Below, one piece after another: positions 31,426-38,746 of a DNA stretch of 63,560 bases (positions are counted from its first letter, which is position 1; each line of letters starts with the position of its first letter). The notes below the pieces were generated by a model. The model was not told where the DNA came from, made no database searches, and saw nothing but the letters and a program-made list of their open reading frames with translations. Source of the DNA: a virus (Duplodnaviria; Caudoviricetes). The stretch covers positions 1 through 63,560 of IMG/VR virus record IMGVR_UViG_3300030382_003361, one strand, 5' to 3'. Made by a program: the position numbers and the translations under genes.

Positions 31426-33649
31426 ATTACATCGCGTACTAACAGGAATAGTTCCTAAGCATGTTATTTCGAATAAAAATCGTGCTAAAAGTTGGAAAGC
31501 TGGTTATGATAGTAAATACGATATAATTATTATCTCTAAAAACGGAACATTAGGAGAAGTATATGAGATTAATGGGTTAAAAATTGGACTCCCTAAGATG
31601 CCTAAAAAAGTATCTTCTACTTCTAAAACAAAAAGTGAGCAATATTGGGAGCCTCATGTTTTACCCAAACATCTTAAACGTATACAGACTATTTTTCAAT
31701 GGCACGACACACCTGCTCCTTTTAAGTCTTTATGGATAGATTATATAGAAGAAGAGTTTGATAAACGGGAAGAAGGACATTGGTTTATGAATAATGGGGA
31801 TCCGACTTATATTACAGGAACTCATTATATGTATTTACAATGGACAAAAATTGATGTAGGAAATCCGGATTTTAGAGAAGCGAATCGAATTTTTTATCTA
31901 TTTTGGGAAGCTTGTAAGGTAGATAAAAGATGTTTTGGCATCTGTTATTTAAAAATAAGGCGTTCGGGGTTTTCGTTTATGAGTTCGTGCGAAGGAGTAA
32001 ATTGTGGTACAATTACAAAAGATGCCCGTATAGGTATTTTATCGAAAACAGGTTGGGATGCGAAAAAAATGTTTACCGATAAAGTTGTTCCTATCTCTAA
32101 CAATTATCCTTTCTTTTTTAAACCTATTCAAGATGGTATGGATAAACCAAAAACTGAATTAGCATATAGAGTGCCAGCCTCTAAGATTACTAAAAAAAAT
32201 ATGTATGAAATTGAGAGTGAGGAATTAGAAGGGTTAGATACCACTATAGATTGGAAGAACACTTCGGATAACAGTTATGATGGAGAAAAATTATATTTAT
32301 TATTACACGATGAAAGTGGTAAATGGGAAAAACCGGAAAATATTTTAAATAATTGGAGGGTTACTAAAACCTGTTTAAGATTAGGAAGTAAAGTGGTAGG
32401 GAAATGTATGATGGGATCGACGTCTAACGCTTTAGACAAAGGGGGAAGAAATTTTAAATCTTTATATGATGACTCAGACTTATCTAAGAGAAATTCTAAC
32501 GGTCAAACAAAAAGCGGGTTGTATTCTTTATTTATACCTATGGAATGGAATTTTGAAGGATACATAGATAAGTACGGGATGCCTGTATTACACAATCCTC
32601 CTGCTCCTATTATGGGGATAGATGGAGAGGAGATTACAATGGGTGCAATTAATTATTGGGAAAATGAAGTAGCTTCATTAGCTTCGGATGCAGACGCTTT
32701 AAATGAATTTTATCGTCAATTTCCTCGAAGTGAATCTCATGCTTTTCGCGACGAAAGTAAACAGTCTTTATTTAATCTCACTAAAATTTATCAGCAAATT
32801 GATTATAATGATTCTTTAATCATAGACCACCATTTAACCCGAGGTTCTTTTCACTGGAAAGATGGGGTACAGGATACTAAAGTAATCTGGTCTCCTAATA
32901 AGAGAGGGCGGTTTTTAGTAGGATGGACACCGGCGCCGCATTTACAAAATCGGGTAGATGAGTATAGAGGACAGAAAAAACCAGGGAATGAACATTTAGG
33001 ATGTTTTGGTTGTGATTCCTATGATATTTCCGGTGTGGTGGTGGGGCGTGGATCAAACGGGTCTCTACATGGGTTAACCAAATTTAGTATGGATGACGCT
33101 CCTTCTAATCAGTTTTTTTTAGAATATATAGCGCGGCCTCAAACTGCAGAGATATTCTTTGAGGAAGTTTTAATGGCTTGTATTTTTTATGGAATGCCTA
33201 TTTTATGCGAGAACAACAAACCCCGTTTACTTTATCATTTTAAGAATAGAGGGTATAGAGGGTTTTGTATGAATCGGCCTGATAAACGTTATAATAAATT
33301 ATCTAAAACAGAGAAAGAACTGGGCGGTATCCCTAACAGTTCGGAAGATGTTAAACAATCCCATGCTTCAGCGATTGAATCTTATATTGAAAAATATATT
33401 GGGTTAGATTTTGAGGGGGCTTATAGAGACCCTGACGAGATGGGGACAATGTATTTTCGGCGTACTTTAGAGGACTGGGCTAAATTTGATATTAATCATA
33501 GGACTAAATATGATGCAACTATAAGTTCAGGGTTAGCCATTATGGCTATTCAAAAACACTTATATACACCGTCTAAAGAAAAATCAAAAATAAGTGTTAA
33601 CTTTGCACGATATAATAACAAGAGTAGTATTAGTGAACTAATTAGATGA
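31403..33649 (+). CDS. terL: Terminase large subunit
   Basis: KIRRSGFS Walker A, LLHDESGK Walker B, GST, GCDSYD nuclease; precedes portal. Confidence 0.9.
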   Translation: MQNQDQNRLHRVLTGIVPKHVISNKNRAKSWKAGYDSKYDIIIISKNGTLGEVYEINGLKIGLPKMPKKVSSTSKTKSEQYWEPHVLPKHLKRIQTIFQWHDTPAPFKSLWIDYIEEEFDKREEGHWFMNNGDPTYITGTHYMYLQWTKIDVGNPDFREANRIFYLFWEACKVDKRCFGICYLKIRRSGFSFMSSCEGVNCGTITKDARIGILSKTGWDAKKMFTDKVVPISNNYPFFFKPIQDGMDKPKTELAYRVPASKITKKNMYEIESEELEGLDTTIDWKNTSDNSYDGEKLYLLLHDESGKWEKPENILNNWRVTKTCLRLGSKVVGKCMMGSTSNALDKGGRNFKSLYDDSDLSKRNSNGQTKSGLYSLFIPMEWNFEGYIDKYGMPVLHNPPAPIMGIDGEEITMGAINYWENEVASLASDADALNEFYRQFPRSESHAFRDESKQSLFNLTKIYQQIDYNDSLIIDHHLTRGSFHWKDGVQDTKVIWSPNKRGRFLVGWTPAPHLQNRVDEYRGQKKPGNEHLGCFGCDSYDISGVVVGRGSNGSLHGLTKFSMDDAPSNQFFLEYIARPQTAEIFFEEVLMACIFYGMPILCENNKPRLLYHFKNRGYRGFCMNRPDKRYNKLSKTEKELGGIPNSSEDVKQSHASAIESYIEKYIGLDFEGAYRDPDEMGTMYFRRTLEDWAKFDINHRTKYDATISSGLAIMAIQKHLYTPSKEKSKISVNFARYNNKSSISELIR

Positions 33650-36081
33650 AAGCAGTTGAAATCAACATAAAGTCTGCTGCCTTTCCGGATCAATTTGTCT
33701 CCGACAAAAAGAAAGCAACAGAGGAGTTTGGACTGCAAGTAGGCCAAGCTATTCAGTACGAATGGTTTCGTAGAGATGGAATGCAATGTAGGTTCTACAA
33801 CCAATGGGCAGAATTTCATCGTTTGCGCCTGTATGCGCGTGGCGAACAATCCGTTCGTAAGTATAAAAATGAATTAGCAATAGACGGTGATTTATCTTAC
33901 CTTAATTTAGATTGGACGCCAGTTCCAATTATTCCTAAATTCGTAGATATTGTAGTTAATGGGATGTCCGATAGATTATTCCATGTGAAAGCGACGGCTG
34001 TAGACGTTATGTCTGCAGAAAAACGCAGTCAGTTTCAAGAAATGGTAGAGGTAAATGTGGTGGCGAAAGATTTATTCCTTCAAATAGAAAACGATTTCAA
34101 TATGAAGGTGGGTCAGATTAATCCTAAAGAGCTACCCGAAAGTGATGCCGAAATGGAGTTATACATGCAGCTTAACTATAAACCCGGTATTGAGATTGCT
34201 AATGAAGTGGCGATTCAAAGTATGTTAGAAGAAAATCATTACGAACAGGTTCGTAAAAGATGTGACTTAGATATTACAACCCTGGGAATTGGAATATGTA
34301 AACATACTTTTCAGAAAGGAGACGGAATACGGGTAGAGTATGTTGATCCAGCCAATGTGGTATATAGCTACACAGAAGATCCTCATTTTAAAGATACGTT
34401 TTATTGGGGAGAGATTAAAACTGTCCCGATTACGGAAGTTTTAAAAATTAATCCCGATTTAACCGAAAAAGACTTAGAGGAAATTTCCAAATATAGTCAA
34501 GCATGGTATAACTACTATAACGTAGCGGCCATGTATGAAAACAGTATGTTCGCTCGGGACACTTGCACTCTTTTATATTTTAATTACAAAACAACAAATA
34601 GCTTTGTTTATAAAAAGAAAAAAATGGCGGAAGGAACATTTAAGGTGGTAGAAAAAGATGACGAGTTTAATCCGCCGCAAGAAATGATGGATGAAGGAGA
34701 GTTTGAGAGAGTAGAAAAAAGAATAGATGTGTGGTATGAAGGAGTAATGGTGATGGGGACAAATCTCCTTATTGAATGGAAAATGATGGAAAATATGGTT
34801 CGTCCTAATTCCGCTAATCAATTTGCTATGCCTAATTACATCGCTGTTGCACCCAGAATGTATAAAGGAAGATTAGAATCTTTAGTTAGACGCATGATTC
34901 CTTTTGCCGACTTAATTCAGGTTACTCACCTGAAGTTACAACAAGTAGTTTCCAAAGTTGTTCCTGATGGAGTGTTTATTGATGCCGACGGATTAAGTGA
35001 AGTTGATTTAGGGACAGGGAATGCTTATGACCCTTCCGATGCTTTACGTTTATATTTCCAAACTGGTAGTGTAGTAGGAAGGAGTTATACCCAAGATGGA
35101 GAGTTTAATAATGCTAAAGTTCCAATTACTCAACTTACGTCAAGTAGTGGAGCACAAAAAATGCAAATGCTAATTGGTAACTATAATCATTATTTAGATA
35201 TGATAAGAACTGTAACCGGTCTTAATCAAGCCCGAGATGCTTCGACACCTGATCCAGATTCGTTAGTAGGCATTCAAAAATTAGCGGCTTTAAACTCTAA
35301 TACGGCTACGCGTCATATTTTAAAATCCAGTTTGTATTTAACTAAAACTTTAGCGGAAGCTTTATCTTTACGGACAGCCGATATTTTAGAATACTCAGAT
35401 TTTAAAGATGAGTTCGCTATGCAGATAGGGAAATATAATTTAGGAATTTTAGAAGAGATTAAAAATTTATATTTATATGATTTTGGTATTTTTATTGAAG
35501 TATCTCCCGACGAGGAAGAGAAGGCTTTATTAGAACAGAACATACAAATGGCTTTACAGAAAGGGGGAATTGATTTAGAAGACGCTATTGATATTAGAAC
35601 TCTTAATAATTTAAAAATGGCTAATCAATTATTAAAAGTTAAAAGGAAACAAAAACAACAGGAACAGCAACAGCAAAAAGCTCAAGAGATGCAAATGCAG
35701 CAACAAAACAACATGCAGTCTCAGCAAGCGGCGGCCCAAGCCTCTATGCAAAAAATGCAAGCCGAAACTCAATCTAAAATGCAAATTGCTCAGGCCGAAA
35801 TAGGTTTCCAGATTGAAAAACAAAAAAATGAAGCCGCTTTAAAACAACAATTAATGCAAGTAGAGTTTCAATTTAATATGCAATTAAAAGGAATAGAACA
35901 GTCACAAATAGATAAACGTGAAAACGAAAGAGAGAAAGGAAAGTCGGATAGAATAGCAGAAGCTAATACGCAACAATCTAAAATGATTGAACAAAGAAAA
36001 AGAAATTTACCAGCTCAGAACTTTGAGTCTAATGAAGATAGTTTAGATGGGTTTGATTTAGCAGAATTTGACCCGCGATAA
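33646..36081 (+). CDS. Portal protein
   Basis: Position after terL; PIIPKFVDIVVNG; Gln-rich coiled barrel. Confidence 0.85.
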   Translation: MKAVEINIKSAAFPDQFVSDKKKATEEFGLQVGQAIQYEWFRRDGMQCRFYNQWAEFHRLRLYARGEQSVRKYKNELAIDGDLSYLNLDWTPVPIIPKFVDIVVNGMSDRLFHVKATAVDVMSAEKRSQFQEMVEVNVVAKDLFLQIENDFNMKVGQINPKELPESDAEMELYMQLNYKPGIEIANEVAIQSMLEENHYEQVRKRCDLDITTLGIGICKHTFQKGDGIRVEYVDPANVVYSYTEDPHFKDTFYWGEIKTVPITEVLKINPDLTEKDLEEISKYSQAWYNYYNVAAMYENSMFARDTCTLLYFNYKTTNSFVYKKKKMAEGTFKVVEKDDEFNPPQEMMDEGEFERVEKRIDVWYEGVMVMGTNLLIEWKMMENMVRPNSANQFAMPNYIAVAPRMYKGRLESLVRRMIPFADLIQVTHLKLQQVVSKVVPDGVFIDADGLSEVDLGTGNAYDPSDALRLYFQTGSVVGRSYTQDGEFNNAKVPITQLTSSSGAQKMQMLIGNYNHYLDMIRTVTGLNQARDASTPDPDSLVGIQKLAALNSNTATRHILKSSLYLTKTLAEALSLRTADILEYSDFKDEFAMQIGKYNLGILEEIKNLYLYDFGIFIEVSPDEEEKALLEQNIQMALQKGGIDLEDAIDIRTLNNLKMANQLLKVKRKQKQQEQQQQKAQEMQMQQQNNMQSQQAAAQASMQKMQAETQSKMQIAQAEIGFQIEKQKNEAALKQQLMQVEFQFNMQLKGIEQSQIDKRENEREKGKSDRIAEANTQQSKMIEQRKRNLPAQNFESNEDSLDGFDLAEFDPR

Positions 36082-36111
36082 GTAGCTTAAAAGGAGTGTA
36101 TAATAATTGTT

Positions 36112-36136: not shown

Positions 36137-37312
36137 ATGGAAAATAAAATTACAGTAAAAGACTTAGGACAAGTCGAAGAAAAGTCCAAAGCGCAAGTAG
36201 AGGAAGAGTTGTTAAAAAAACATGAAGAAGAAGAAGTACAAGCGCAAACCAGTGAAGCTGGAGTGGAAAGAGTTAACTTGGAGCAGTCTAATAGAAGCCC
36301 TGAGAGTTCCTCTTCCTCACCGGAACAAGAAAGTGTACCGGAGGAAAGTAAAACACAAGAAAAAACTCCCTCCTCAGAGTTAAATGAGGAAAACGTTCTT
36401 TCGTATATTAAACAAAGATATGATAAAGATATATCGTCAGTAGAAGAATTATGGGCTCAACAAGAGTCTAATGAAGACCTCCCTGAAGATGTGTCGGCAT
36501 ATTTTAAATATAAAAAAGAAACGGGACGCGGTATTGAAGATTATGTGCGATTACAAAAAAATTACACAGAAATGGACGACGACGCGGTGTTAACTGATTA
36601 CTATACGGCTACCGAAGATGGGTTAGACGCTATAGATATTCAAGATGTCATGGAGGATAAATTTGGAGTGGATGAAGACTTAGATGATCCAAAAGATATT
36701 AAGAAGAGAAGGTTAGCGAAAAAAAGAGAACTTTCAAAGGCGAAGAAGTTTTTTGAAAAGCAAAAGGAACAATATAAAATTCCGCTTGAGTCAAGAGGGG
36801 ATGGGTTGTCCAAAGAACAAGAAGATGCTTTTAAGTCGTATAAAAGTTATGTTGAGGAGTCTAAAACTACCGAAGACGCGAGAAAAAAAAGGTATGATTG
36901 GTTTCTTACTAAAACCAATGAGGTTTTTAACGATGAGTTCAAAGGTTTTGAGTTCAATATCGGAGAAAAAAGTTTTACCTTTAAACCTGGTGACGCTAAG
37001 GAGTTAAAAAGTCGCCAGTCTGATGTCAATACATTTGTAAATAAATATATGGACCAAGAGACTGGAATGATGAAGGATGCACAAGGATATCACCGAGCAA
37101 TAGCTATGGCGATGAACCCTGAGAAATTTGCAAAATTCTTCTACGACCAAGGGGTGGCAACGACAGTAGATGATGTGGCGAGAAAATCGAAAAACATCAC
37201 TATGGATCGTCAAACTCCACAAACTTTTAGTAAAGACGGGTTGAAGATTAGATCAGTCGGAGATTCAAGTAGTGGAAGAGGACTCAAAATTAGAAGTATT
37301 AAAAAAAGTTAA
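36137..37312 (+). CDS. Putative capsid scaffolding protein (start revised to ATG 36137)
   Basis: Acidic, helical, between portal and MCP; the track start at 36107 lies upstream of the promoter box. Confidence 0.7.
   Translation: MENKITVKDLGQVEEKSKAQVEEELLKKHEEEEVQAQTSEAGVERVNLEQSNRSPESSSSSPEQESVPEESKTQEKTPSSELNEENVLSYIKQRYDKDISSVEELWAQQESNEDLPEDVSAYFKYKKETGRGIEDYVRLQKNYTEMDDDAVLTDYYTATEDGLDAIDIQDVMEDKFGVDEDLDDPKDIKKRRLAKKRELSKAKKFFEKQKEQYKIPLESRGDGLSKEQEDAFKSYKSYVEESKTTEDARKKRYDWFLTKTNEVFNDEFKGFEFNIGEKSFTFKPGDAKELKSRQSDVNTFVNKYMDQETGMMKDAQGYHRAIAMAMNPEKFAKFFYDQGVATTVDDVARKSKNITMDRQTPQTFSKDGLKIRSVGDSSSGRGLKIRSIKKS
36222..36383 (+). CDS. Nested +1-frame 53-aa basic protein with ArfA-like motif
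   Basis: MKKKKYKRKPVKLEWKELTWSSLIEALRVPLPHRNKKVYRRKVKHKKKLPPQS; A-rich leader. Confidence 0.6.
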   Translation: MKKKKYKRKPVKLEWKELTWSSLIEALRVPLPHRNKKVYRRKVKHKKKLPPQS

Positions 37313-37333: not shown

Positions 37334-38746
37334 ATGCCAGTAAATGCAACCCCCGGGTATGATTTGCAACCCAGTGCGGAGCGAGTAGCTTTAGCAACAA
37401 ACTATATAACTAACTTTGATTTCTTGAATCAGTATCTTCCAGATACTTATGAAAAGGAATTTGAGCGTTATGGCAATCGAACAGTCGCTTCATTCTTACG
37501 AATGGTAGGCGCAGAAATGCCTTCTAACTCAGACATGATTACGTGGGCTGAGCAAGGAAGGTTACACACTAAGTATACAAACTGTACATCAGCAGGAGCA
37601 GCAGCAGCCAATACTGCAACATGGACAGTGAATGATGTTTTAGTTCCAGGTACAGGTACTATAGCAATTAGAGTAGGACAAACTGTATTATTATCAGATA
37701 ACACAGCAGGTTCTAATTTATCTAATAAAGCTATTGTAACTGCAGTAACACCAGCAGCAGGCACTTTTACAGTTGCTTATTATGAAGCAGCAGGACAAGG
37801 CGTAGCTTTAGGTGTAGTAAGTAGTGTTATGATTTATGGTTCTGAATTTGCGAAAGGACAAGCAGGAATGACTGACTCCTTAGAATCAGACGATGTATTC
37901 TTTCAAAATTCTCCAATTATCATAAAAGATACTTATGAAGTAAGTGGTTCTGATATGGCTCAAATTGGTTGGGTAGAAATCTCAACTGAAGATGGCGGAT
38001 CAGGATATCTTTGGTATCTCAAATCAGAGCATGAAACAAGACTTCGTTTTGAAGATTATCTTGAAACTGCAATGATTGAAGCAGTTCCTGCAGAAGCAGC
38101 CTCAGGTGCAATAGCAGCTGTAGCTCCTGTTGGAAACAAAGGTTCTGAAGGTGTCTTTTATGTAGTAGGTAACAGAGGAAATGTTTATGGTGGTGGTAAC
38201 CCAACTACCTTAGCAGATTTTGATGCTGTTATTCAGAGACTTGACAAGCAAGGCTCTATTGAAGAAAATGTAATCTTTTGTGACAGACAATTCTCATTTG
38301 ATATTGACGATATGTTAGCTGCCCAAAACTCTTATGGAGCGGGTGGTACTTCGTATGGTCTTTTCGATAATGATGAGGATATGGCTCTCAACTTAGGTTT
38401 CACTGGATTCCGTAGAGGTTATGACTTTTACAAGTCTGACTGGAAATACCTTAACGATGCTACTATGAGAGGTGGTTTAGTAGGTGGGGCAATCAACGGA
38501 CTTTTAGTTCCTGCGGGCTCAACTACGGTTTATGACCAAATCTTAGGTAAAAACGCTAAGAGACCTTTCCTTCATGTAAGATATAGAGCTTCTGAAACTG
38601 AAGACAGACGTTATAAAACTTGGATCACTGGTTCTGCTGGTGGCGCAAGAACATCTTCTTTAGATGCAATGACAGTGAATTTCTTATCTGAAAGAGCATG
38701 TTGTACATTAGGTGCAAACAACTTCTTCTTATTCCAAGACGCATAA
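37334..38746 (+). CDS. Major capsid protein
   Basis: 470 aa after scaffold, followed by a strong terminator; QYLPD.YEKEFERYG, W.EQGRLH. Confidence 0.85.
   Translation: MPVNATPGYDLQPSAERVALATNYITNFDFLNQYLPDTYEKEFERYGNRTVASFLRMVGAEMPSNSDMITWAEQGRLHTKYTNCTSAGAAAANTATWTVNDVLVPGTGTIAIRVGQTVLLSDNTAGSNLSNKAIVTAVTPAAGTFTVAYYEAAGQGVALGVVSSVMIYGSEFAKGQAGMTDSLESDDVFFQNSPIIIKDTYEVSGSDMAQIGWVEISTEDGGSGYLWYLKSEHETRLRFEDYLETAMIEAVPAEAASGAIAAVAPVGNKGSEGVFYVVGNRGNVYGGGNPTTLADFDAVIQRLDKQGSIEENVIFCDRQFSFDIDDMLAAQNSYGAGGTSYGLFDNDEDMALNLGFTGFRRGYDFYKSDWKYLNDATMRGGLVGGAINGLLVPAGSTTVYDQILGKNAKRPFLHVRYRASETEDRRYKTWITGSAGGARTSSLDAMTVNFLSERACCTLGANNFFLFQDA

What the first reader, a model, noticed from the sequence alone, without database searches (positions are those of the whole stretch)
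36222..36383. Second hidden +1-frame gene inside the scaffold gene, with an ArfA-like motif
Seen: a 53-aa ORF (MKKKKYKRKPVKLEWKELTWSSLIEALRVPLPHRNKKVYRRKVKHKKKLPPQS) after TTAAAAAAAC, under the acidic N-terminal linker of the scaffold. Established: E. coli ArfA, a ribosome rescue factor, carries NKKGKGSYMRKGKH and binds the ribosomal mRNA channel. The nested peptide has NKK-VY-RRKVKH. Inference: a ribosome- or nucleic-acid-binding peptide expressed from the capsid transcript. Caveat: Glu-rich frames automatically give Lys-rich +1 frames, so the motif is the evidence, not the charge.
Basis: partly seen in the sequence, partly recalled or inferred. Interest (0 to 1): 0.85.

Follow-up and report, generated by a model that had tools for sequence, protein, structure and literature searches.

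The report
Real hidden gene inside phage scaffold gene
A 53-residue, very basic protein is encoded in a second reading frame inside a marine phage's capsid-scaffold-like gene; it belongs to a widespread but uncharacterised family of small phage proteins, and its proposed kinship with the ribosome rescue factor ArfA is not supported.

Summary
The ORF at 36222..36383 exists exactly as described. I judge it a real gene, but not because it is open. Given the scaffold protein and local codon usage, the +1 frame stays open by chance with P=0.072.

The evidence is evolutionary:
- Inside the ORF, substitutions follow the codon periodicity of the +1 frame, not the scaffold frame. In 8 independent pairs, 72 of 168 changes are +1-synonymous against 13 of 151 scaffold-synonymous. 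Naive dN/dS is 0.08-0.10 in +1 and 6.6-7.3 in the scaffold frame.
- A profile built only from nested peptides finds small proteins in public data (60 hits at E<=1e-3 among 1.84 billion).
- Of 93 loci fetched with the family profile, 68 have the gene nested, all at +1, in scaffold homologues. The other 25 carry it free-standing in unrelated phage neighbourhoods.

The family lies near Pfam DUF7230 but below its cut-off.

ArfA homology fails every test: the Pfam model, PDB profile searches, and hhalign (5.6-7.6% probability). Only a short Y.RK.KH tail resemblance remains.

Function is unknown. My best guess is binding of a nucleic acid, possibly ribosomal RNA, through the invariant basic tail.

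The parts
36222..36383 (+). Nested gene: 53 codons plus TAA stop, in the +1 frame of the host gene.
   Evidence: ORF listed. +1-frame codon periodicity of substitutions. Naive dN/dS 0.08-0.10 in this frame.
36249..36368 (+). Conserved core of the small-protein family. It has a strand/helix part (KLEWKELTWSSLIEAL) and a basic tail (RVPLPHRNKKVYRRKVKHKK).
   Evidence: Six-frame search of the virus record with family profile A2 gives one match here, E 3.1e-18. It is the only copy in the record. A2 contains the window's own peptide, so this score is partly circular. The independent support is. AlphaFold2 predicts a helix at residues 20-27, with pLDDT 84-89 for residues 11-30.
36222..36224 (+). Presumed start codon ATG of the nested gene.
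   Evidence: All 19 ORF-bearing close relatives have an ATG upstream of the core. That includes 3 (L083, L144, L146) where the scaffold His codon is CAC and a different ATG is used. The start context is weak: 7th percentile of 46 window gene starts.
36212..36221 (+). TTAAAAAAAC: the A-rich, G-poor stretch before the start. It includes the upstream +1-frame stop TAA at 36213-36215.
   Evidence: Upstream regions of window genes are A/T-rich with G <= 0.15 at every position from -20 to -1, so there is no Shine-Dalgarno signal. The A-run is not conserved in other nested loci.
36137..37312 (+). Host gene, 391 aa. It is called scaffold by position only, lying between the portal and major capsid genes. 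Its acidic linker is read from the same DNA in frame 0.
   Evidence: (phrog_16786, unknown function, E 3.6e-9). Cultured relatives annotate it 'structural protein' or 'hypothetical protein'.
33646..36081 (+). Portal gene (context).
   Evidence: phrog_6547 portal protein, E 3.4e-150.
37334..38746 (+). Major capsid / virion structural protein gene (context).
   Evidence: phrog_13704, E 9.3e-103.

Best explanation
36222..36383 is a genuine protein-coding gene embedded out of frame (+1) in the 5' part of the scaffold-like gene of a complete ~63.6-kb tailed phage, probably of marine Bacteroidota. It encodes a 53-residue, strongly basic member of a widespread phage small-protein family, a sub-threshold relative of Pfam DUF7230. 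That family occurs at the same place and in the same frame in many related phages, and as a free-standing gene in unrelated phages.

Shown: the +1 frame is under strong purifying selection, while the scaffold frame over the same bases evolves as the passive frame.

Inferred (about 70%): the peptide is made by independent, probably low-level initiation at ATG 36222 on the late portal-scaffold-capsid mRNA. No Shine-Dalgarno sequence would be used, as is usual in Bacteroidota.

Inferred (about 30-35%, my best single guess): the short strand-plus-helix (LT.QEW..AL) makes a protein contact, and the invariant tail (P.P.RNKK[KV]Y.RK.KHK) lies in a nucleic-acid groove of a conserved host target. RNA or the ribosome seems more likely than the capsid, because free-standing copies sit among replication and RNA-repair genes, not capsid genes.
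For: (1) Window versus L001 (the two aligned scaffold proteins are 85% identical). Inside the ORF, differences at scaffold codon positions 1/2/3 are 15/5/1 of 52 sites each. In the rest of the gene they are 23/11/59 of 308-309. Fisher P is 0.0009 for position 3 and 4.5e-5 for position 1.

(2) Parsimony on an 18-sequence tree. The ORF core has 89/45/41 changes over 35 columns each; the rest of the gene has 389/247/1002, chi2 P=3e-21. Linkers of four groups without the ORF keep position 3 >= position 1.

(3) Eight independent pairs. Differences by +1 codon position are 46/34/88. +1-synonymous changes are 72 of 168 (18.5% expected, P=4e-13). Scaffold-synonymous changes are 13 of 151 (20.4% expected, P=1.6e-4).

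(4) Naive dN/dS, window versus L082 and L001: 0.10 and 0.08 in +1; 7.3 and 6.6 in the scaffold frame.

(5) 71 distinct nested cores. Mean pairwise identity is 67.1% for the +1 peptide and 46.2% for the scaffold-frame peptide. +1 is higher in 99.2% of pairs.

(6) A profile of 17 nested peptides finds 60 proteins at E<=1e-3 (5 at <=1e-10) among 1.84 billion representatives, and 153 in the 5.8-billion set. They align over the full length.

(7) Of 93 loci found with the family profile, 68 are nested, 68 of 68 at offset +1, in homologues of the window's scaffold (23-67% identity). The other 25 are free-standing.

(8) In one scaffold clade sampled without regard to the motif, 71 of 72 distinct genes carry an ATG-started nested ORF.

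(9) All 19 ORF-bearing close relatives keep an ATG before the core.
Against: - There is no direct evidence of translation or even transcription.
- The start context is poor: score -2.62, 7th percentile of 46 gene starts, and 28.6% of 1132 internal ATGs score as well.
- The gene is absent from 114 of 133 distinct nearest relatives, from 64 of 78 in a second clade, and from the two cultured or near-cultured relatives checked. It is therefore dispensable.
- The window peptide scores 15.8 bits against DUF7230, below the 27-bit cut-off.
- The AlphaFold2 model is weak overall (pLDDT 73, pTM 0.29).
- dN/dS was computed with a method that ignores the overlap.
- The 80 loci were chosen by the motif, so and the tree are biased towards presence.
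- The functional guess rests only on sequence features and on the few free-standing neighbourhoods whose flanking genes matched a known family.
Confidence: 0.85

Rival explanations
1. Chance by-product. A Glu/Gln-rich linker automatically gives an open, Lys-rich +1 frame with an ATG from His-Glu. Nothing is made, or nothing that matters.
For: P(open) is 0.072 for the window and up to 0.57 in relatives. The ATG is forced by CAT GAA. The frame is broken in 114 of 133 distinct close relatives. The start context is weak.
Against: It cannot explain the inverted codon periodicity confined to the ORF. It cannot explain the depletion of scaffold-synonymous changes (13 of 151). It cannot explain full-length homology to free-standing genes, or 68 of 68 nested copies sharing one frame.
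Confidence: 0.03
2. ArfA homologue or analogue. The basic tail enters the empty mRNA channel of stalled ribosomes, and the N-terminal part recruits a release factor, rescuing ribosomes during infection.
For: - Shared short motif NKK...Y.RK.KH.
- The hhalign score of 16.6 is reached by 1 of 400 whole-sequence shuffles and 1 of 400 local shuffles of ArfA.
- Another small basic ribosomal protein, E. coli S21, scores P=0.47.
- One free-standing copy lies between a CCA-adding/poly(A) polymerase-family gene and a metallophosphoesterase, an RNA-repair-like setting.
- Strict conservation of the tail suggests a conserved target.
Against: - No Pfam ArfA hit at E<=10.
- No PDB chain at E<=10 with either profile.
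- hhalign probability is only 5.6% and 7.6%, and only the tail aligns.
- ArfA's invariant N-terminal and KGKGS columns have no counterpart.
- The comparison was chosen post hoc.
- The other free-standing neighbourhoods examined give no support: replication genes, a chaperonin, or genes with no family match.
Confidence: 0.1
3. The peptide is not made on its own. It is made as a fusion to the first ~28 scaffold residues, by +1 ribosomal frameshifting or polymerase slippage on the A-run at 36214-36220.
For: The window has A7 directly before the ATG. L001 and L082 have A6G. Three database proteins (P0034, P0035, P0051; 83-110 aa) join a scaffold-type acidic N-terminus to the C-terminal half of the nested peptide.
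Against: - The A-run is absent from the other 14 complete group-A sequences (L013 is a cut fragment).
- The +1-frame stop at 36213-36215 leaves only 6 bases in which to shift.
- An ATG is kept in 19 of 19, including 3 where it is not forced.
- Free-standing homologues start with their own Met.
- The three fused proteins switch frame inside the nested ORF, not at its start, so they look like indels in assemblies.
Confidence: 0.07
4. Capsid-assembly or DNA-packaging accessory. The basic peptide binds the acidic scaffold linker or the packaged DNA, and is co-expressed with the capsid genes for that reason.
For: It is nested in the scaffold-like gene in 68 of 93 loci and in 71 of 72 genes of one clade. 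Peptide and linker carry opposite charge and come from the same DNA. Some free-standing copies lie beside DNA polymerase, topoisomerase and helicase genes.
Against: - 25 of 93 loci carry it with no portal, scaffold or capsid homologue of the window within about 4 kb.
- Many close relatives with the same capsid module lack it.
- Position-specific conservation (invariant Y, H, N) is unlike bulk charge-neutralising proteins.
- A nested gene with a weak start is unlikely to give the copy number needed for DNA condensation.
Confidence: 0.2
5. The constraint is on the nucleotide sequence (an RNA structure or regulatory site in the scaffold mRNA), not on a second protein.
For: Reduced change at scaffold third positions would also follow from an RNA element. 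A second stretch with few third-position changes exists at about 36700-36800 without a conserved ORF.
Against: The variation has a three-base period in the +1 frame: column entropy 0.686/0.531/0.936. The frame is kept open with an ATG. The translated product matches free-standing protein-coding genes.
Confidence: 0.02

Closest known systems
phiX174 gene E nested in gene D (external scaffolding protein gene)
   Same: A small gene lies wholly inside a phage scaffolding gene and is read in another frame. Nesting of E in D was seen in passages of PMC8227390. That D encodes the scaffolding protein is recalled.
   Different: - phiX174 is a 5.4-kb ssDNA microvirus; this is a ~63.6-kb tailed phage.
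- E is a membrane-spanning lysis protein (reference titles; the rest is recalled). This peptide has no hydrophobic stretch and no Cys.
- E is lineage-restricted. This family also exists as free-standing genes in unrelated phages.
Lambda Rz1 embedded in Rz (spanin pair); recalled, not checked by any search
   Same: An out-of-frame gene is embedded in another gene of a tailed phage and conserved across many phages.
   Different: Rz1 is an outer-membrane lipoprotein with a signal peptide and a lipobox Cys, and is functionally paired with its host gene. The peptide here has neither feature. It also occurs without the host gene.
Pfam DUF7230 (PF23876) and phrog_6310 / phrog_18092
   Same: These are ~42-residue families of unknown function that match the same basic tail. 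13 of 17 nested peptides hit DUF7230 at E<=1, best 0.00099. 11 of 17 hit phrog_6310 and 11 of 17 hit phrog_18092. One free-standing relative carries a precomputed PF23876 label (P0066). Another reaches 25.1 bits (P0048).
   Different: No sequence tested here reaches the 27-bit cut-off; the window scores 15.8 bits. Matches cover only the tail, not the LT.QEW..AL part. No function is attached to these families. A full-text search found no paper with the term DUF7230.
ArfA, alternative ribosome-rescue factor A (Pfam PF03889)
   Same: A small basic protein with a short helix followed by a Lys-rich segment and a Y.RK.KH motif.
   Different: No detectable homology. ArfA's invariant N-terminal block and KGKGS loop are missing. 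ArfA is bacterial; its named relatives listed are enterobacterial. This family is phage-borne.

Membership tests
Functional overlapping (dual-coding) gene | The alternative frame is kept open, with a start codon, in relatives that share the region. | tested here: met
   19 of 19 distinct close relatives with this linker type have an ATG ORF of 36-53 aa. In the L232-like clade, 71 of 72 do. Openness alone is weak evidence (P=0.035-0.57).
Functional overlapping (dual-coding) gene | Synonymous sites of the host frame are constrained, and substitutions follow the codon periodicity of the alternative frame. | tested here: met
   with controls on linkers that lack the ORF.
Functional overlapping (dual-coding) gene | The product is detected (ribosome profiling, mass spectrometry, tagging). 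| not testable with these tools
   RNA runs held only 0.04-0.06 of the sampled words. No cultured phage carrying the gene was found.
Phage small basic protein family defined here (alignments A1/A2) | Full-length match: LT.QEW..AL[RK].P.P followed by RNKK[KV]Y.RK.KHK, total length about 36-60 aa. | tested here: met
   A profile built from nested peptides alone (A1) retrieves free-standing proteins at E down to 1.0e-12 and 5.7e-14. The window peptide is 50% identical to P0072 in alignment A2. In the window, the W of QEW is replaced (SSL) and KKK is KKV.
Pfam DUF7230 (PF23876) | Score at or above the 27-bit gathering cut-off. | tested here: not met
   15.8 bits, E 0.015 for the window. Best of 17 nested peptides is E 0.00099. 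Best free-standing relative tested is 25.1 bits. The family is therefore a neighbour of DUF7230, not a scored member.
ArfA (PF03889) | Match to the family model (cut-off 25.5 bits). | tested here: not met
   No hit at E<=10 on the peptide or on the six-frame record. hhalign probability is 5.6% and 7.6%.
ArfA (PF03889) | Conserved N-terminal block and KGKGS loop (invariant columns of the ArfA alignment). | tested here: not met
   These columns are invariant in 14 ArfA sequences. They have no aligned counterpart in A2.
ArfA (PF03889) | Binds the empty mRNA channel and recruits RF2 to non-stop ribosomes. | not testable with these tools
   Needs biochemistry. No complex prediction was run.
Single-gene lysis proteins / embedded spanins (phiX174 E, lambda Rz1) | A transmembrane segment, or a signal peptide with a lipobox Cys. 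| tested here: not met
   The 53-aa sequence has no run of hydrophobic residues long enough to span a membrane, and no Cys. The family features themselves are recalled.

The most novel reading that the evidence does not exclude
The family is a phage-borne, ArfA-like ribosome factor for Bacteroidota. Its invariant tail would occupy an RNA channel of the host ribosome, to rescue or re-programme ribosomes during infection. It may have been born by overprinting in the acidic linker of a scaffold gene, where Glu/Gln codons give a Lys-rich +1 frame for free. It would then have spread as a free-standing gene to unrelated phages. That would make it a rare traceable case of a de novo overlapping gene escaping its cradle.
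Probability: 0.1. Interest if true: 0.9.

Novelty: new variant of a known kind. Interest (0 to 1): 0.72.

Why it matters
- Standard gene callers forbid long same-strand overlaps, so this gene is invisible in annotation. In the two cultured or near-cultured relatives inspected, only the host gene is annotated at this position, although those two lack the nested gene.
- The nested gene is under stronger selection than the scaffold residues it overlaps, and it recurs in well over a hundred phage contigs fetched here.
- It gives a clean, well-sampled example of a long-lived out-of-frame embedded gene in tailed phages. The same protein is also available as free-standing copies, which makes it useful for studying how two proteins share one DNA stretch and which frame came first.
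- It singles out an uncharacterised, strictly conserved 40-50 residue basic protein of Bacteroidota phages as a target for functional work.
- It warns that the sequence of the acidic 'linker' in these scaffold genes is partly dictated by another protein.

Tried and rejected
- Openness as evidence: rejected, because chance gives it in 3.5-57% of resamplings.
- Start-site strength: the context is weak, so it does not support the gene.
- Protein library searches: PDB profile searches with A1 and A2 found nothing at E<=10. NCBIfam gave nothing meaningful. The ESM Atlas gave only 'hypothetical protein' clusters, one with DUF7230 on 16% of members.
- S21-like idea (from a recalled resemblance to the N-terminus of ribosomal protein S21): hhalign probability 0.12%. 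Rejected.
- Cultured phages: tblastn of a free-standing member against the phage collection found no match (the low-complexity filter may hide the tail). The scaffold of the clade where the gene is near-universal hits the same 70 records as the window's scaffold. The two records I searched whole lack the gene. The Maribacter phage record never appeared in a listing and was not tested.
- RNA evidence: only 3 runs were found, holding 0.04-0.06 of the sampled words.
- Complex prediction (peptide with a release factor or with the scaffold): not run. A pass with a stand-in host protein would not have been decisive.
- Fold search: not run, because the model is a single short helix with pTM 0.29.
- The other +1 ORF of the scaffold gene (36753..37007): broken in most relatives.
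- Literature: four full-text searches found no description of this nested gene or of DUF7230 (one search was for Bacteroidota initiation). Supplementary files were not consulted.
- Papers seen: PMC8227390, passages only. PMC6847099, abstract and outline only. All others, search listings only.
Full report
**The observation.** One search lists an ATG ORF at 36222..36383 (+), 53 aa, reading MKKKKYKRKPVKLEWKELTWSSLIEALRVPLPHRNKKVYRRKVKHKKKLPPQS. One search shows TTAAAAAAAC at 36212-36221 in front of it, with a +1-frame TAA at 36213-36215. The ORF lies in the +1 frame of a gene that runs to 37312. That gene's conserved start is ATG 36137. The TTG at 36107 given by the ORF list is not conserved, since many relatives have stops between the two positions.

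**The setting.**
- The window is a whole IMG/VR virus record of 63,560 bases, rated 100% complete and linear, with 35.9% G+C.
- The upstream gene is a portal (phrog_6547, E 3.4e-150). The downstream gene is a virion structural / capsid protein (phrog_13704, E 9.3e-103). The host gene matches only phrog_16786, of unknown function, and no Pfam family. 'Scaffold' is therefore a name by position.
- Its only relatives among 50,697 phage records are 68 Flavobacterium phages, one Maribacter phage and one uncultured podovirus.
- Upstream regions of 46 window genes are A/T-rich with almost no G, so there is no Shine-Dalgarno signal. This fits Bacteroidota, which lack such sequences and favour A at -3 (abstract of PMC6847099).
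- 7 of the 13 genome-collection loci with the small gene are labelled as Bacteroidota lineages, all of them MAGs.

I fetched 80 relatives of the host gene from viral contigs and 80 from metagenomes. I fixed the frame with tblastn and translated the +1 frame of the N-terminal region. There were 161 sequences including the window. One (L154) was dropped for lack of an anchor motif, leaving 133 distinct regions.
- 19 of these carry an ATG ORF of 36-53 aa with a shared core.
- The other 114 have the frame broken, with the longest ATG ORF at 24 aa.
But the 114 have a different linker sequence, and the ORF goes with one linker type.
- Openness says little. Given each scaffold protein and local codon usage, the +1 frame stays open in 7.2% of resamplings for the window and 3.5-57% for ten relatives.

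**What decides the matter is how the region evolves.**
- Window versus L001. Differences inside the ORF fall 15/5/1 on scaffold codon positions 1/2/3 (52 sites each). In the rest of the gene they fall 23/11/59 (Fisher P 4.5e-5 for position 1 and 0.0009 for position 3).
- The switch is sharp at both ends of the ORF (sliding windows).
- On a tree of 18 ORF-bearing genes, parsimony gives 89/45/41 changes in the ORF core against 389/247/1002 in the rest (P=3e-21).
- Four control groups whose linkers lack the ORF keep position 3 at least as variable as position 1: 294/196/311, 11/12/48, 40/27/50 and 256/199/288.
- In eight phylogenetically independent pairs, 72 of 168 differences are synonymous in the +1 frame (18.5% expected, P=4e-13). 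Only 13 of 151 are synonymous in the scaffold frame (20.4% expected, P=1.6e-4).
- Naive Nei-Gojobori dN/dS for window versus L082 and L001 is 0.10 and 0.08 in +1, and 7.3 and 6.6 in the scaffold frame. The method ignores the overlap, so only the contrast should be read.
- Over this stretch the +1 protein is the one being conserved.

**The peptide has relatives that are ordinary genes.**
- A profile of 17 nested peptides (A1) found 60 proteins at E<=1e-3 among 1.84 billion representatives, 33-111 aa long. It found 153 in the 5.8-billion set, on contigs of up to 236 kb, none with an informative name.
- They align over their whole length. There is an N-terminal Lys-rich stretch, then LT.QEW..AL[RK].P.P, then RNKKKY.RK.KHK.
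- With the wider alignment A2, the genome collection gave 13 loci, all MAGs. Viral contigs gave 346 confirmed relatives, of which 80 were kept.
- In 68 of these 93 loci the small ORF lies inside a same-strand ORF of at least 200 aa. That ORF is a homologue of the window's scaffold-like protein (23-67% identity). All 68 sit at offset +1, 28-133 codons from the host start, usually with an ~800-aa ORF before and a ~480-aa ORF after.
- In the other 25 loci the small gene stands alone, packed between other genes, with no homologue of the window's portal, scaffold or capsid protein in the fetched flanks.
- Neighbours of free-standing copies include:
  - a DNA polymerase exonuclease subunit and topoisomerase II (L174);
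  - a CCA-adding/poly(A)-polymerase family enzyme and a metallophosphoesterase (L165);
  - GroEL (L181);
  - a DnaB-like helicase (L173);
  - an AAA ATPase (L182);
  - many proteins with no match.
- Across 71 distinct nested cores (79 nested loci, 73 distinct, 2 dropped for short N-termini), mean pairwise identity is 67.1% for the +1 peptide, 46.2% for the scaffold-frame peptide and 71.1% for the DNA. Column entropy by +1 codon position is 0.686/0.531/0.936.

**How common is it?**
- Because the loci were picked by the motif, I rescanned viral contigs with two distant scaffold proteins, without regard to the motif.
- Among relatives of L232, 71 of 72 distinct genes carry an ATG-started nested ORF. 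Among relatives of L241, 14 of 78 do.
- One of the six scan patterns for L241 lies in the overlap region, which gives a slight bias.
- On a tree of 193 distinct scaffold C-terminal regions, 79 carry the gene. Presence changes 8 times by parsimony, against a mean of 61 for shuffled labels (ascertainment bias included).
- The gene is therefore old in this capsid module, near-universal in some clades, and lost or swapped out with the linker in others.
- The window holds one copy. The Manatee Spring podovirus and Flavobacterium phage elemoF hold none.

**ArfA.** E. coli ArfA does read ...EKNKKGKGSYMRKGKH....
- The Pfam ArfA model gives nothing at E<=10 on the peptide or on the six-frame record.
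- Profiles A1 and A2 find no PDB chain at E<=10.
- hhalign of A2 against ArfA gives 5.6% probability. Against an alignment of 14 ArfA sequences it gives 7.6%. Only the 23-24 residue tail aligns.
- The ArfA alignment is narrow: 80-93% identity, because the 120 best of 726 hits listed were all close relatives.
- The tail match is better than composition explains. 1 of 400 whole shuffles and 1 of 400 local shuffles reach the real score, and S21 as a control basic protein gives P=0.47.
- But the comparison was chosen because it looked alike. ArfA's invariant N-terminal block and KGKGS loop have no counterpart.
- Homology is not supported. An ArfA-like way of working is neither supported nor excluded.

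**Closest catalogued families.** DUF7230 is hit below threshold by 13 of 17 nested peptides, best E 0.00099. phrog_6310 and phrog_18092 are each hit by 11 of 17. All are of unknown function and match only the tail. Free-standing members score up to 25.1 bits against the 27-bit cut-off, and one carries a precomputed DUF7230 label. I treat the family as a neighbour of DUF7230.

**Expression (inferred).**
- All 19 close ORF-bearing relatives keep an ATG before the core. In three the scaffold His codon is CAC, so the forced ATG is gone and another ATG serves. This favours independent initiation.
- The window's start has A at -3 and -2 but scores low overall, suggesting low output.
- The A-run before the ATG invites frameshift or slippage ideas. 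It is not conserved in the other 14 complete group-A sequences (L013 is a cut fragment).
- Three database proteins that fuse a scaffold N-terminus to the peptide's C-terminal half switch frame inside the ORF. They look like assembly indels.

**Function (inferred).**
- AlphaFold2 on A1 gives a confident short segment (residues 11-30, pLDDT 84-89, helix 20-27) and a less ordered basic tail (pLDDT 64-73). Overall pTM is 0.29.
- There is no hydrophobic span and no Cys, so the peptide is not a lysis protein or a spanin.
- Position-specific invariance of N, Y, R, H and the lysines, in both nested and free-standing copies, points to one conserved partner rather than bulk charge.
- Free-standing copies among replication and RNA-repair genes argue against a role tied to the scaffold.
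- My best guess is binding of a host nucleic acid, RNA or ribosome more likely than DNA, at about one in three. A capsid or DNA accessory role gets about one in five.

**Novelty and limits.**
- Out-of-frame embedded genes are known in phages. phiX174 E in D is confirmed by passages; lambda Rz1 in Rz is recalled.
- I found no description of this one, or of DUF7230, in four full-text searches.
- Nothing here shows transcription or translation. RNA runs were too weak to use.

Noticed in passing
It has internal stops in 14 of 18 group-A relatives; only the window, L082, L001 and L087 lack them. It does not look like a gene.
   Followed up: yes
window about 36700-36960: Window and L001 are almost identical here at all codon positions. 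On the 18-sequence tree, third-position changes drop to about half the gene's norm, 27-33 per 15 codons against roughly 50-60. No conserved alternative ORF explains this. Possible causes are recent recombination, an RNA element or codon bias.
   Followed up: partly
window 36107 vs 36137: The mechanical ORF list starts the scaffold-like gene at TTG 36107. Relatives conserve Met-Glu at the position of ATG 36137, and many have stops upstream of it.
   Followed up: yes
window 36214-36225: An A7 run sits in the register of a -1 slippery heptamer (A AAA AAA; A AAA AAG in L001 and L082). A -1 shift would meet TGA at 36223-36225, which overlaps the nested ATG as ATGA. That arrangement could allow termination-reinitiation. 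The run is not conserved in the other nested loci, so I did not build on it.
   Followed up: partly
proteins P0034, P0035, P0051: These database proteins of 83-110 aa begin like the acidic scaffold N-terminus and end with the C-terminal half of the nested peptide. Their reading frame switches inside the overlap. They are probably indels in assemblies, but a natural frameshifted variant is not excluded.
   Followed up: no
proteins P0004, P0008, P0014, P0023, P0027, P0031, P0074, P0117, P0136, P0157, P0177; locus L190 3998-4189: Several called proteins of the free-standing type carry, before or after the conserved part, similar odd stretches rich in S-Y-I-Y. This looks like read-through of a conserved DNA element next to the gene, perhaps a promoter or terminator. 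It is unexplained.
   Followed up: no
window, all gene starts: Upstream regions of 46 long ORFs are A/T-rich with G at most 0.15 at every position from -20 to -1. A peaks at about -11 to -14 (0.61-0.74). No Shine-Dalgarno signal is present. This fits a Bacteroidota host.
   Followed up: partly
locus L396: One relative of the L241-type scaffold gene has its reading frame broken by stops after 81 codons. Either the gene is broken or there is an assembly error.
   Followed up: no
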